From Leucoraja erinacea (taxonomy: Eukaryota): a stretch of DNA of 64,000 bases. Within the stretch, counting starts at the first letter, position 1, and each line of letters opens with the position of its first letter. Position numbers and translations under genes: made by a program. The notes beneath the pieces were generated by a model. That model was not told the origin of the DNA. It did no database searches and saw only the letters and a program-made list of their open reading frames with translations. The stretch covers positions 25,172,001 through 25,236,000 of the forward strand of contig NC_073398.1 in NCBI RefSeq assembly GCF_028641065.1. The letters are read 5' to 3'. Below are positions 30,712-61,339 of the stretch, piece after piece.

Positions 30712-30892
30712 TTATATTCTCCAAGGGAGAGCCACAAATTCAGAAAGAGAGTTTGGGAGACAGTCGTCCAGTTCACCAAGGTAACGTCCCCGTCTTTTTT
30801 TCTGAGAGGAGTTTGCTTCCTCAAAGGACAGGGACATTCTCTGAGAACAATGTTCCCCTGAGAGGTTCATATACTCCAAAAGAGTCATATTC
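30712..30892 (-). CDS. Unidentified minus-strand gene, probable last exon
   Basis: Phase-2 acceptor cacttcaag|G; (R)NMTLLEYMNLSGEHCSQRMSLSFEEANSSQKKRRGRYLGELDDCLPNSLSEFVALPWRI*. Confidence 0.55.
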
Positions 30893-31547
30893 CTTGAAGT
30901 GCAGGGAGTTGTCTCAAACATTCCCAAGCGTTGTCTTTTCCAGTGGCTGTGCAAAGCACTCTCTCATAAAATGGTTTGTTTCATAACTGGGACTGTGACT
31001 GCTTCATGGTTGGCTATTCAAGATGCTGTTCAATAAGTTGTGAGTCTTATATGTCCGATCAAAATTTCTTTCTTAACCTATACTGAAATTTCCTTGATGG
31101 GTTCCTTTCTTCTTTATAGGAAGGAGGCACAAGTGGTTGGTGGGGTGTGCATTTCACAGTGATTTAGTTTGGGTTTTGCTTTGGAAAAGATGGATTGGGG
31201 TGGCGATACAATTAACTGAACTCCTGTAGGAAATTCTTGTGGGAAAGGGCAGACTGTATTTAGGTAGGGACCCACACACACGGTGAGCCCTGCAGATCCC
31301 AATACATTGGTTGGTACAGGAATAGCTAATGTAACATTTACTCTTCCAATAAAGGAATCTGCTGGGTCACACAGTATTCTTTACCACCGCCCCCCTCTTT
31401 CATATTTGTATCTCAACGGATGTTAATCCTCACCCTGTCTATCCCTATTTATCACCAGTGCACACAATCTTCCTCCATCTCCAGGCCTTGCATATTTCTC
31501 TTCCTCTGTCAATCCACAATCCTTGTGTCTTTCTTTTTCATCTATAT

Positions 31548-31752
31548 CAAGTCAAGTCAAGTCAAGTTTATTCGTCACATACACATACGAGATGTGCAGT
31601 GAAATGAAAAGTGGCAATGCTCGCAGACTTTGTGCAAAAAGACAAACAAACAAACAACCAACCAAACAAACTACAAACAGAATGGAACAGAATCACATAT
31701 TATTTTACATATTAAATATTGTGGGCAGAAGGAAAAAGGGAAAAAAACAGCA
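31548..31752 (-). mobile_element. LINE 3' end with (TTGAC)n tail
   Basis: caagtcaagtcaagtcaagtttatt on + reads AATAAA then TTGAC repeats on -. Confidence 0.55.
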
Positions 31753-33450
31753 CTTTCATTATCAGTCATCATTCTTAATCCTAGTGTCTCTCTATCCATT
31801 CCCAATCCCACAGCATCTCCTTCTCTCTCCGTTCCCAAAACGACATCTCTCTCCCTCCACCCCTAATCCAACAACATCCCTCTCCCTCTAACTCCAATCA
31901 TACAGCATCTCCCTCCCTTTTTCCACATCAACTTCAGTACAGCCCTCCCTCTATTTGAACCCCAAATCTATTGGATAATAGATAAGTAAATATCTGCTAT
32001 TTATTCCAAGGTAGTTAGCGATTCCCTTCAGTTGGTGGAAACTATTCTCTCTATATGTGGCACTGTGTCAATGCTGTCTTGAGTTCTACTGAGTTAGTCC
32101 AATAAACACTGGCTTCGGCTACTTTCTCCCTCCTCTCTCAGTGATTTCCATTATTGACCTCTCCACATCAGTGATCTGGAATTGAGGTAAACAAGAAATG
32201 TGTTTGTATTTTCAGCAGAGAAGGTTTAGGTAACAACAGCATCAGAAACAACCAAACAGAGTCTGTTTCATTGTTTTTCACAGAACAGAACCTGACCCTG
32301 AATAGAATGAGCAGCTGGTCATACTTCACTACTGGGGTCAATGTGTCACATGGCTGTCAGAACCAGCATAGGCTTGATCCACCTTAGAAAGGGTGAGGTT
32401 CAGCTTCACTTGATTGATTCCTGGGACATAGAGTCAATCTTTGAATAAAGGTTTGAGTGCAATTAAGAAGAGTGAGGGATGATACTGGGTGACAGGAAAT
32501 CTGCCGAAAAGCTTTTCTTCTTGGCTGGAGTGCAGAGTCAGGCATTTTAGATAAGTGATTGGCCACTTAGGTCTGAGATAGAGACTTTCTTCATTCAATT
32601 AGTTGTGAATTGTTGGAATTATCTAAACTAATGGACCATAGTCCATTAGTATCTTCATTGAAAGATGTTGAACACTTTGGGAACCCAAGGATACGAAGAG
32701 AGGACAGGAAAGAGGAGGGGGGGGAGAAAATCAGCCAGGTACATTGGACAATGGAGTAGGTCAAGGGCTCTGCTGAGTAGCTACCTCCTGTTCATATTCC
32801 TATTTCTGTGGAATAGGGCTTGGGCCAAAACCACACTCCCCAGTCTTCAGTTAAACAATGAGACTAAATCCGTTCTAAATCCTTTCTTAAAGAGACCATT
32901 CAAAACAACGGGTTGAGGGAATCTGTTACATGGATACCTGGATGTTGGACCTCCTTTGAATGTTCACTTTGATTCTTCCCATCAGTAAAATCCTTAGTTT
33001 CCACAGGATTGAACAGTTCATTAAAACTGGCTGTGTTCCTATGAAGAAGTACAAAGGTAAAAGCTACTGACCGTTATAACTCAGCTCATCCCCACTATCT
33101 TACAGCAACAGCTCCACCCCTCACCTGCTACATCTTCATCAGTTACTCCACTATCATGTTTCTTACACTCGACCCCTCAAATATACCTCCTGGACCATCT
33201 GTCTCCTTTCAAATGCTAACTTCTGCTCTTCGACTCCATAAATCCATCATTCGCCCTTCATACAATAACTCTTCAATTGCTATCCCATAGCAATATCCTC
33301 ACACCAACCTCTCAAATGTACCCTGCAACACATTCCCCACCCTCAACTCTTTAGCATTAACCTGAAAGCTTCATCCCATTCCCTTAACTGAATATCTTAC
33401 CTTATATCTTCAACCCCACACAATCATAACTAATCCCATAAAGCAACCAG

Positions 33451-33994
33451 TCATAGAAACATAGAAAATAGGTGAAGGAGGAGGCCATTCGGCCCTTTGA
33501 GCCAACATTGCCATTCATTGTGATCATGTCTGATCGTCCCCAATCAATAACCCGTGCCAGCCTTCTCCCCATATCTCTTGATTCCACTATCCCCTGGAGC
33601 TCTATCTAACTCTCTTAAATCCATCCAGTGATTTGGCCTCCACTGCCCTCTGTGGCAGGGAATTCCACAAATTCACAACTCTCTTGGTGAAAAAGTTTTT
33701 TCTCACCTCAGTCTTAAATGGCCTCCCCTTTATTCTAAGACTGTGGCCCCTGGTTCTGGACTCGCCCAACATTGGGAACATTTTTCCTGCATCTAGCTTG
33801 TCCAGTCCTTTTATAATTCTATATTTCTATAAGATCCTTCATCCTTCTAAACTCCAGTGAATACAACCCTAGTCTTTTCAATCTTTCCTCATATGACAGT
33901 ACCGCCATCTCAGGGATCAATCTCGTGAACCTACGCTGCACTGCCTCAATCACAAGGATGTCCTTCCTCAAATTAGGAGACCAAAGCTGTACAC
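33451..33994 (-). mobile_element. CR1 LINE 3' fragment
   Basis: CVQLWSPNLRKDILVIEAVQRRFTRLIPEM...ERLKRLGLYSLEFRRM; catagaaacatagaaa tail. Confidence 0.85.
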
Positions 33995-34277
33995 ATCTCA
34001 ACCCCTCAGCTCAACTCCCACCCCCACACTGCTCATTGTTATACATCTGTTGCAATCCTCCTTGCCATACACACCTCATTAAATACTGCATTTACATCTC
34101 CACCATCACCACTGTAACTCTCCACCCCTTAATCTCACTGTCATGTGTCATTCCATTCACCTATAACAACCCCATCCTTGCCCCTTGAACACCATCCCTC
34201 AATATTATTATAACCTCAGCCCCATCTTCAGCTTCACTCCTTAATCCACTGCGCAAGCCCTCCAGAAGCTTTCCTAC

Positions 34278-34366
34278 CTCTCGCCTTTTGATCTCAGAAT
34301 GAAGGTACGTTCTTGTCGAAGTTGTTCCAAACTTTCCCTGACTTTAGTCCTCCAGTGAACAGATTC
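34278..34366 (-). CDS. Unidentified gene exon
   Basis: ctgcactag|ESVHWRTKVRESLEQLRQERTFILRSKGE(R)|gtagga; phase 0 to 2. Confidence 0.7.
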
Positions 34367-59628: not shown

Positions 59629-59913
59629 TGAACGGCAGAACCCTATATGTAAGCCTGGAAAGTGTGATTTAGTACACAAGGTAGTCACATAGTGACTCAA
59701 TATCACTTCTGTTGTATTCCCAGTCAGTGTGATTCAGTACAGCACACAATGTAGTCCTGGTGTGTGTGAACCAGTACCACAGTTTACTTGTGGTGTGCGT
59801 GTGATTGATTACACAACCAGTGCACTCCTGGTGTGTTTTCCGGCAACACATCCATAATCTTGGGTGTTGGGAAAATTCATGTACCCCAAGTAACTCTTAA
59901 TGCTGGTACACAC

Positions 59914-59999
59914 CTGGTGCTGACTCGATGTCTCTCCTGCTGCACACTGCTGAGGTACTCGAGCTGTGCCTTCCAACTCTCCAGTTCAAATTCCTCATC
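59914..59999 (-). CDS. Unidentified gene exon
   Basis: gtttttacag|DEEFELESWKAQLEYLSSVQQERHRVST|gtgtgt; phase 0 to 2. Confidence 0.62.
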
Positions 60000-60573
60000 C
60001 TGTAAAAACACTGCAGCTTCCATCAGTCAGTCACTGCTGCCGTCTCACACCGACTCACACCATTCTCGTCACTCTCTCCATTGCTCCGTTACTCCGTCAC
60101 TCCCACGGTCCCTCACTGCTGCCATGGGTCAGTTCTGTGGCCACCCCCTCAGTGCTCCACTCTCTCGCTCACAGACACAGTCACTCACTCGACACCGTGT
60201 TAACCTGTGGGGGCAGCTTGTGGAGTGGACCAGTCTATCACTCACTCACTGCCATGACCATTCACATTCATGTTCTCGCTCCCTCACTCAAACTCAGCAC
60301 AGCCAACCCAGACACACAACATCCATCAACTGCAACGTGATGCTCAACCATCTGCAAGTTTACGACAAGCCATTCATCTTACTCATTTGATGAAGTACCA
60401 ATCATTCGTTACATGGCAGGTACAGCTCAGGGTGTGTACAAAGTAAAACACCCTTCACACTGTCCCATCAAAAAAGTCAAGGGAAAATCCAACCAGGGTG
60501 TGGTGCAGAGTCATTTTTTCCTGTCGATAGTCCCATCACACATCCAGTACAGTGTAAATATCTCCATGCTTAC

Positions 60574-60882
60574 AATTGGAGATTGCCCGACTTGTTTTTC
60601 CTTCCTCACTTCCAGCTTTGGCATTATTTGGTGTGACCACAGGGGTTGCCATGTTTCCATCGACATGCAACACTCGTTCACATCAGAGAATGGATCCAGG
60701 GGCTCAGGGAGAGACAGTCGATCCCTACTCCAGCTGTTGTGCATCTGCACATTCCAACACAGCTGCAGCACAAGGACCGGAGAGTCAGGGACTAAAGGTG
60801 AATCAAACTGCCTTTTACAGCAAGGTCTCGGCATTAATCCACAGGCTGCTGGTGAGCACACTCTGCTGGGACTTCAGCCGCT
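60574..60882 (-). CDS. Unidentified gene, candidate exon (5' boundary uncertain)
   Basis: ...MPRPCCKRQFDSPLVPDSP...KLEVRKEKQVGQSPI|gtaagc, phase-0 donor fits the next exon; in-frame TGA at 60874-60876 if the acceptor at 60882 is used; ATG at 60834. Confidence 0.45.
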
Positions 60883-61249
60883 CTGAGTAATGGGACAGAA
60901 ACCATCGCCTACTGACATCCGGAGGTCAGGACAGACGGCAATGGACCACTGCTACCTGTTCTGTGTGATTAATATGTTGTGGAACAGAACCTTACTCAGA
61001 GTAGACAGCAAGGGACTATACCCCAGAGAGAATCATTCTGGGGAACTCTACCCCTGGGAGTCAGTGTCTGGGGAAATGTACCCAGGGAGTGCCAGTGTCT
61101 GTGGTATTGTACCTCAATGACAGTCAGTCTCTGTGAACTGACACTGCCCCATGGACCCCTGCTACAGTAACAGTCAGGGTCTGGGGGGCAGCTCCCTCCA
61201 TGAGGGTTAATGTCTGGGGAAATAACCTGCCATGAGTGTGATCCGATAC

Positions 61250-61339
61250 CTGCTCCGACTGGTCTTGTTTTCCCTCTTGCTCCAACAGAATATCCAGGAG
61301 TGTTTCAGGGCTGTAGACTCCACACATCTTGCTATACAT
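61250..61339 (-). CDS. Unidentified gene, candidate exon
   Basis: ttctgctggcag|MYSKMCGVYSPETLLDILLEQEGKQDQSEQ|gtatcg (alternative donor at 61227). Confidence 0.4.

What the first reader, a model, noticed from the sequence alone, without database searches (positions are those of the whole stretch)
30712..61339. Unrecognised multi-exon minus-strand gene (about 16 exons) beyond ATP6V1FNB
Seen: open exons with canonical splice sites whose phases chain: 60574(0) to 59999-59914(2) to 59000-58828(1) to 57727-57601(2) to 56637-56484(0) to 55815-55693(0) to 52747-52571(0) to 51527-51401(1) to 48832-48675(0) to 47451-47254(0) to 42814-42614(0), then one unresolved junction, then 41337-41255(1) to 39882-39749(0) to 38902-38801(0) to 34366-34278(2) to 30892-30712 (stop). 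The C-terminus reads as a charged helix across junctions: EEEKKHVLRSLAHVQRKAEEKRRREKERQTLR|VLEGLSIARNR...LTEDLLK|ESVHWRTKVRESLEQLRQERTFILRSKGER|N. Several of these exons are missing from the ORF track. I expected KCP here from recalled human synteny, but no Cys-rich VWC/VWD repeats are present. Inference: an uncharacterised coiled-coil protein of several hundred residues, possibly lost or highly diverged in mammals.
Basis: partly seen in the sequence, partly recalled or inferred. Interest (0 to 1): 0.7.

Follow-up and report, generated by a model that had tools for sequence, protein, structure and literature searches.

The report
Unnamed vertebrate-wide EF-hand scaffold gene
This is a real 15-exon skate gene of an unnamed family that also exists in sharks, bony fish, frogs, reptiles and mammals; its protein is predicted to have a calmodulin-like head that likely no longer binds calcium in skates, a long floppy middle and a conserved helical tail, and it likely serves as a tether in a few specialised cell types.

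Summary
The gene is real and already has an automatic RefSeq model (LOC129707839, 'uncharacterized'), whose 747-aa protein maps letter for letter onto 15 GT-AG exons at 61339-32900. It is not KCP, which ends about 22 kb upstream. It is not lost in mammals: orthologues occur from chimaera to monkeys, in mammals often mislabelled 'collagen-like'. No Pfam family or solved structure matches. New here is the architecture: an N-terminal calmodulin-like EF-hand region (intact loop only in reptiles; lizard model Z 9.6 to a calmodulin lobe), a helical middle domain lost in mammals, a variable disordered spacer and a conserved ~110-aa C-terminal pair of helices. No reads covered two tested exons in 4 of 4 RNA runs. 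Function is inferred: most likely a tissue-restricted tether, possibly ciliary or flagellar. In passing: a frameshifted D4-type dopamine receptor sits at the DRD4rs position, reported as lost in cartilaginous fish.

The parts
61250..61339 (-). First coding exon of the RefSeq model (aa 1-30). Its ATG directly follows an AG acceptor, so it is likely an internal exon; aligns with the second (degenerate) EF-hand-like helix-loop-helix of the family
60574..60762 (-). Alternative phase 0-0 exon, skipped in this species' model, used in Amblyraja and Hemitrygon models; carries the entry helix and a degenerate loop of the EF-hand that is intact in reptiles
59914..59999 (-). Exon, aa 31-58
58828..59000 (-). 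Exon, aa 59-116; start of the conserved helical middle domain
57601..57817 (-).
56484..56676 (-).
55693..55842 (-).
52571..52747 (-). Exon, aa 304-362
51401..51527 (-). Exon, aa 363-404; end of the middle domain
48675..48832 (-). Exon, aa 405-457; poorly conserved acidic spacer
47254..47451 (-). Exon, aa 458-523; spacer
42614..42814 (-). Exon, aa 524-590; spacer; joins 39892 directly in phase 0
39749..39892 (-).
38801..38902 (-). Exon, aa 639-672; end of helix 1 and linker
34278..34366 (-). Exon, aa 673-701; second helix of the C-terminal domain
32900..33038 (-). True last coding exon, aa 702-747 plus stop; holds the conserved N-x3-F-x2-L-x2-P motif
41255..41337 (-).
30712..30892 (-).
27267..27708 (+). 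Neighbour: first coding exon of SPMIP1/ATP6V1FNB, tail to tail with this gene
   Evidence: (Pfam SPMIP1 E 5.5e-31)

Best explanation
This single-copy, 15-exon gene belongs to an unnamed jawed-vertebrate family, and its protein likely works as a soluble two-ended tether in a few specialised cell types, most likely at cilia, flagella or centrosomes, with a predicted EF-hand-derived head that likely no longer binds calcium in skates. Shown: the exon structure, the position between SPMIP1 and a D4-type receptor/KCP, orthologues from chimaera to monkeys, a canonical EF loop only in reptiles, no membrane-spanning stretch, a spacer that varies greatly in length, and a conserved charged C-terminal domain. 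Predicted (AlphaFold on sturgeon and lizard orthologues): calmodulin-like EF-hand pairs at the N-terminus, a helical middle domain, a disordered spacer and two long C-terminal helices. Inferred: head and tail each bind a partner, because these are the two parts that mammals kept, and the spacer only sets reach. The ciliary or flagellar site is the weakest step.
For: Exact mapping; single copy as a floor. 64 of 78 representative hits match only the C-terminal domain. Named members: Callorhinchus, sharks, rays, sturgeon, coelacanth, teleosts, Xenopus, lizard, turtles, alligator, bilby, bats, shrew, guinea pig, reindeer, monkeys. A bony-fish N-terminal/middle profile finds sharks (1.7e-27), lizard (5e-20), stingray (2e-11) and mammalian N-termini (3e-7), and no reversed control passed the print cut-off, so homology is not confined to the tail. 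Lizard residues 76-147 match calmodulin-type lobes (Z 9.6, rmsd 1.9, 68 aligned; troponin C Z 9.0), and the listed Foldseek rows are almost all EF-hand proteins, though each has E > 0.1. Sturgeon 1-74 weakly matches EF-hand pairs (Z 5.4-6.3). The EF loop scores 6 of 6 consensus positions in 9 of 40 proteins, all reptiles, and at most 2 of 6 in the other 31. Highest 19-residue hydropathy is 0.8-1.55 in 7 of 7 proteins tested. No reads on exons 14-15 in 4 of 4 RNA runs fits restricted expression. Weak leads to cilia/centrosome: the nearest language-model look-alikes are CEP126 and a CEP295-like cluster, at scores of 0.75-0.78, which is within the chance range.
Against: No localisation, partner or tissue was observed. 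The four RNA runs gave no exon read, their tissues are unknown and only 1-25% of each run was read, so expression is not shown here. The Atlas scores are below its own lead threshold, and a third search found no usable hit. A sperm-protein neighbour in tail-to-tail orientation implies no shared function. The skate protein itself was not folded, its N-terminal region matches the fish profile only at E about 2-3, and it lacks the first EF-like exon and the invariant LPGAF block that sharks keep. The EF-hand Pfam scores stay under the curated cut-offs (best E 0.0018).
Confidence: 0.45

Rival explanations
1. It is a calcium-regulated (calmodulin-like) sensor or switch without a ciliary role, the tail being a self-associating or target-binding helix.
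For: Canonical 12-residue EF loop in 9 of 9 reptile proteins that show the entry helix; calmodulin-lobe fold in the lizard model.
Against: The loop is degenerate in 31 of 40 proteins, including this skate's alternative exon, all fish and all mammals; this species' RefSeq model skips that exon.
Confidence: 0.2
2. In skates the gene is decaying under relaxed selection and makes little or no functional protein.
For: No exon reads in 4 of 4 RNA runs; the first EF-like exon and the LPGAF exon(s) were not found in the genome between KCP and this gene or in intron 3; a LINE lies just upstream of the first modelled exon.
Against: All 15 exons are open with GT-AG ends; 95% identity to the Amblyraja protein and 56-90% to stingray in the C-terminal domain exons, against 42-58% in spacer exons; several skate and ray species have full-length models.
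Confidence: 0.12
3. It is a 3' extension of KCP (read-through isoform), as two alligator models named 'kielin/chordin-like protein isoform A/B' imply.
For: Alligator KYO19816/7 join KCP VWC/VWD exons to this sequence; same strand as KCP.
Against: Here KCP ends in its own TIL exon with a stop about 22 kb upstream, an opposite-strand dopamine receptor gene lies in between, and the later alligator RefSeq model is a separate 787-aa protein. KCP is secreted (own knowledge), whereas this protein has no hydrophobic stretch.
Confidence: 0.03

Closest known systems
RefSeq 'uncharacterized protein' LOC129707839 (XP_055509208.1/9.1, Leucoraja erinacea) and its orthologues (e.g. LOC116985269, LOC100491312, LOC106737782)
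   Same: Identical protein and exons; same family.
   Different: The databases give no name, family, domain or orthology link; several mammalian members are mislabelled collagen alpha-like or GPRIN1-like, and alligator models fuse it to KCP.
Calmodulin/centrin/troponin C EF-hand superfamily
   Same: Predicted paired helix-loop-helix lobe (lizard Z 9.6, rmsd 1.9, 68 residues); canonical loop in reptiles.
   Different: The head is only about 150 residues of a 600-3000-residue protein; only one loop is canonical, and only in reptiles; no Pfam EF-hand cut-off is reached.
EVC, EVC2 and the little-studied ciliary paralogues EVC3.1/EVC3.2
   Same: Long helical, charged proteins; EVC3 was found in ciliomes of choanoflagellate, sea anemone and sea urchin and is missing from some mammals (bioRxiv 10.1101/153437, passages). 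That invertebrate proteins pair an EF-hand head with an EVC2-like region is recalled, not from a call.
   Different: No EVC2_like Pfam match in 33 of 33 members; the family profile against one skate EVC2 exon gave probability 0.2; no transmembrane segment; the skate's EVC2 lies elsewhere.
CEP126 (K1377), MISP3/AKAP2_C, CEP295-like
   Same: Low-complexity middle with a short charged conserved helix; nearest Atlas neighbours.
   Different: Scores 0.75-0.78 are within the range of shuffled proteins; their Pfam families do not match.

Membership tests
EF-hand (calmodulin) superfamily | Paired helix-loop-helix lobe | tested here: met
   In the lizard orthologue's AlphaFold model, residues 76-147 (pLDDT 72-92), Z 9.6 / rmsd 1.9 / 68 aligned. 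Predicted only; the skate protein was not folded.
EF-hand (calmodulin) superfamily | Canonical 12-residue Ca2+ loop in the skate protein | tested here: not met
   The loop in exon 60762-60574 lacks the acidic residues at positions 1, 3 and 5 and Gly6; relatives outside reptiles score at most 2 of 6.
EF-hand (calmodulin) superfamily | Canonical loop in reptile orthologues | tested here: met
   6 of 6 consensus positions in 9 lizard, turtle and alligator proteins; a PROSITE-like pattern hit only the lizard protein.
EF-hand (calmodulin) superfamily | Measured calcium binding | not testable with these tools
   Needs ITC or a similar assay.
KCP / kielin-chordin-like | VWC repeats, VWD and TIL domains | tested here: not met
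   No Pfam match in P0005, P0006, P0013; the real KCP exons lie upstream.
EVC / EVC2 | Pfam EVC2_like (PF12297) match | tested here: not met
   0 of 33 alignment members (HMMER filters drop most matches above E about 0.1).
EVC / EVC2 | N-terminal transmembrane anchor (feature from own knowledge) | tested here: not met
   Highest 19-residue Kyte-Doolittle mean 0.8-1.55 in 7 of 7 proteins.
EVC3.1 / EVC3.2 | Sequence or profile homology to invertebrate or choanoflagellate EVC3 | not tested
   No EVC3 sequence was in hand, and the defining paper (Pusapati 2014) was not held.
SPMIP1 / SNYG microtubule inner proteins | Pfam SPMIP1, SPMIP11 or FAM183 match | tested here: not met
   Only the neighbouring ORF matches; this protein does not.
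CEP126 / K1377 | Pfam K1377 match | tested here: not met
   the Atlas score of 0.77 is a lead only.

The most novel reading that the evidence does not exclude
The gene is the vertebrate survivor of an ancient EF-hand-headed ciliary lineage related to EVC/EVC2 (EVC3), kept from sharks to Old World monkeys at the ATP6V1F-KCP locus under wrong or missing names. Calcium sensing would have been lost independently in cartilaginous fish, bony fish and mammals, and an unannotated or broken copy may lie at human 7q32.
Probability: 0.22. Interest if true: 0.72.

Novelty: new variant of a known kind. Interest (0 to 1): 0.42.

Why it matters
The gene model is in databases, but no family, orthology or domain description was found for it. 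Recognising it links 'uncharacterized', 'collagen-like', 'GPRIN1-like' and 'KCP isoform' records into one family kept across jawed vertebrates. It defines two unnamed conserved domains (middle and C-terminal) fit for Pfam, and offers a natural series of intact and dead EF-hands. It points to a testable candidate next to SPMIP1 in mammals. Without expression or localisation it remains one of many uncharacterised vertebrate genes, so interest is moderate.

Tried and rejected
Pfam on single exons, whole proteins and alignment members: nothing above a curated cut-off apart from the neighbour SPMIP1 and the KCP part of the fused alligator model. PDB sequence searches with P0006 and profiles A1, A3, A4: 0, 0, 1 chance row (E 2.9), 0. 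Atlas: no hit at 0.8 or more. Foldseek: no match at E 0.001 or better for either model. Both models' residues just after the head (sturgeon 106-237, lizard 232-360) align to ion-channel pore helices at Z 5.5-8.1. I rejected this as a common helical arrangement, since these stretches are charged and not hydrophobic; the rest of the middle domain and the tail were barely tested by these lists. Complex prediction of sturgeon head plus middle domain with the C-terminal domain: no verdict (score 0.00, alignments not used). Run search: no RNA holder listed. Junction reads for the 5' two-thirds of the gene were not obtained. Search for the missing first exon and the LPGAF exon between KCP and the gene and in intron 3: nothing above shuffled controls. 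Other phase 0-to-2 exons between 42614 and 41337: 4 weak candidates, not needed. Metagenome scan with the C-terminal alignment did not run. Rfam 26000-64000: 0 matches. Profile against a skate EVC2 exon: probability 0.2. dN/dS was not computed because no relatives' DNA was available. Earlier findings of this scan: none. Paper searches for 12 LOC identifiers found 0 papers; searches on neighbour gene names found only lists of genes.
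Full report
Observation. A search with one exon found 'uncharacterized' proteins of rays and skates, and the cluster holds two RefSeq isoforms labelled Leucoraja erinacea LOC129707839. An exhaustive search over nearby splice sites gave exactly one exon chain that translates to the 747-aa isoform letter for letter: 61339-61250, 59999-59914, 59000-58828, 57817-57601, 56676-56484, 55842-55693, 52747-52571, 51527-51401, 48832-48675, 47451-47254, 42814-42614, 39892-39749, 38902-38801, 34366-34278, 33038-32900. 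Exons 41337-41255 and 30892-30712 score at most 45 and 51 against every fetched relative, while 33038-32900 scores 156-242. The three in-frame short acceptors could be minor splice forms, but the residues they drop are conserved in relatives. Exon 60762-60574 is an alternative exon used in Amblyraja and Hemitrygon. The modelled ATG follows an AG acceptor, and the stingray protein has 64 more residues upstream, so the 5' end is open. A short match at about 62650-62626, followed by GT, scored 43 against a shuffled maximum of 44.

Surroundings. The order is FLNC (+), ATP6V1F (+) (both named from recalled sequence features of the ORFs), SPMIP1/ATP6V1FNB (+; Pfam E 5.5e-31), this gene (-), a D4-type dopamine receptor (+; best PDB match DRD4, E 2e-35), KCP (-). 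KCP's VWC/VWD exons were found with the KCP part of an alligator model, and its last TIL-type exon ends with a stop about 22 kb upstream of 61339. So the gene neither is nor replaces KCP. Profile searches of the own genome found only this locus (9 of 9 and 2 of 2 matches; a floor).

Family. phmmer over 1.84 billion representatives gave 78 hits, 64 of which match only the C-terminal ~110 residues (counted from the table). Thirteen plus ten clusters were looked up by name, and searches added others. Members come from Callorhinchus, sharks, rays, sturgeon, paddlefish, coelacanth, teleosts, Xenopus, Dendrobates, Podarcis, sea turtles, alligator, bilby, bats, shrew, guinea pig, reindeer and Old World monkeys. 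No human, mouse, bird or invertebrate record appeared among the rows that were named, and most rows were not named. Names are 'uncharacterized' or 'hypothetical', or, in mammals, 'collagen alpha-like' and 'GPRIN1-like'. Two alligator models fuse the sequence behind KCP, which shows the same gene order there. Homology extends beyond the tail: a profile of 18 bony-fish N-terminal/middle regions finds catsharks (1.7e-27, 2.4e-22), lizard (5e-20), zebra shark (7.5e-15), stingray (1.9e-11) and three mammalian N-termini (3e-7 to 4e-6, with Z set to 1e6). It finds the skate only at E about 2-3 and did not list the turtle, alligator or monkey proteins. The skate is tied in through rays and sharks. Skate and ray models lack an invariant LPGAF block present in sharks, bony fish and lizard, and it was not found in the genome.

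Anatomy. (1) Head. The sturgeon model has a confident four-helix unit at residues 1-83 that weakly matches EF-hand pairs, such as the PLC EF-hands and a 152-aa axonemal chain (Z 5.4-6.3). The lizard model's residues 76-147 match calmodulin-type lobes (Z 9.6, rmsd 1.9, 68 aligned; troponin C Z 9.0), and its listed Foldseek rows are almost all EF-hand proteins, though with E > 0.1. After the conserved W-D-x-Q-L-L helix, 9 of 40 proteins, all reptiles, carry a loop with 6 of 6 consensus positions, and the other 31 have at most 2 (40 of 144 held proteins matched the helix pattern). The simplest reading is an ancestral four-EF-hand head with repeated decay (inference). The last ~20 residues of the lizard fragment were misaligned in A3, away from this region. 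(2) A helical middle domain, absent from the mammalian proteins inspected. (3) A spacer with pLDDT under 50; total protein length runs from about 600 to 3079 residues. (4) A C-terminal domain of two long helices (sturgeon 514-559, 572-620), 29-45% charged, with a conserved R-x-Q-E-R-L-x-I core and an N-x3-F-x2-L-x2-P end. No transmembrane stretch.

Expression. Four RNA runs of the same species label from four studies were laid on 31950-34420. No read fell on exons 34366-34278 or 33038-32900; reads lay on a LINE fragment, plus a few isolated reads at 32282-32696 in two runs. Tissues are unknown, 1-25% of each run was read, and no control gene lay in the stretch. This argues against high ubiquitous expression but does not show silence.

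Mechanism. Mammals kept the first head lobe and the tail and lost or rewrote what lies between, which is the pattern of a tether whose two ends bind partners (inference). In skates the head likely acts as a calcium-blind interaction module; in reptiles it may still sense calcium. A ciliary, flagellar or centrosomal site is my best guess. It rests on weak leads: sub-threshold Atlas neighbours CEP126 and CEP295-like, restricted expression, a fast-changing spacer, and a recalled resemblance to invertebrate EF-hand plus EVC2-like proteins. Overall confidence is 0.45. Rivals are a calcium sensor without ciliary role (0.2), a decaying gene in skates (0.12) and a KCP read-through (0.03).

Comparison with what is known. 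No Pfam family, solved sequence or Atlas cluster covers it. It works like an EF-hand-headed scaffold but fails the calcium-loop test in skate. EVC/EVC2 membership fails on Pfam and on the membrane anchor; EVC3 could not be tested. Papers: bioRxiv 10.1101/153437, passages on EVC3; PMC5900934, passages on DRD4rs synteny and loss; PMC10973386, passages on SPMIP1 as a microtubule inner protein; PMC3441634, passages listing FLNC, KCP, IRF5, TNPO3 and ATP6V1F in the 7q32 region; PMC5792066, reference list only; Pusapati 2014, nothing read. Main-text searches for 12 LOC identifiers found no paper, and neighbour-name searches returned listings that I saw only as titles and abstract starts. Supplements were not searched, and expression tables there may list these genes.

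Verdict. A real, database-annotated but undescribed gene. The new content is the vertebrate-wide family and its EF-hand-derived architecture. Interest 0.42.

Noticed in passing
L002:1911-5695 (G000:C22, about 15-18 kb upstream of 61339, + strand): A four-exon D4-type dopamine receptor gene lies between this gene and KCP, the position given for DRD4rs, which PMC5900934 (passages) says was lost in cartilaginous fish. A second D4-like copy lies on C18 about 76 kb from an IRF gene, as expected for DRD4 proper. Exon 3 changes frame in the third intracellular loop in this assembly: pseudogene, allele or assembly error. No tree was built; one paper search found no report of it among 10 listed of 912.
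   Followed up: partly
Alligator records KYO19816/KYO19817 (P0126, P0088): Named 'kielin/chordin-like protein isoform A/B' but appear to be gene-model fusions of KCP's 3' exons with this gene.
   Followed up: partly
window 62650-62626, - strand: Nine codons resemble the start of the stingray protein and are followed by a GT donor, but begin with ATA, and the score is not above shuffled controls. A LINE at 61446-62127 lies where the next stingray exon would be.
   Followed up: partly
window 32938 region, - strand: RefSeq isoform X2 ends differently after ...VQHP, which implies an alternative donor inside the last exon; the same form is modelled in Amblyraja.
   Followed up: no
window 26358-26887, 33448-33995, 35645-37002, 39998-40673, 61446-62127: Interspersed repeats with reverse-transcriptase-like ORF fragments (CR1-type by recall); the copy at 33448-33995 draws thousands of reads from other copies in all four RNA runs.
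   Followed up: no
G000:C22:26970422-26974132: The nearest IRF-domain gene on this contig is about 1.7 Mb from the window, whereas IRF5 is listed as a near neighbour of KCP in PMC5900934; not examined further.
   Followed up: no
window 8550-8770, + strand: An FLNC-type exon with the insertion typical of muscle filamin C (recalled; ORF) supports naming the upstream filamin FLNC.
   Followed up: no
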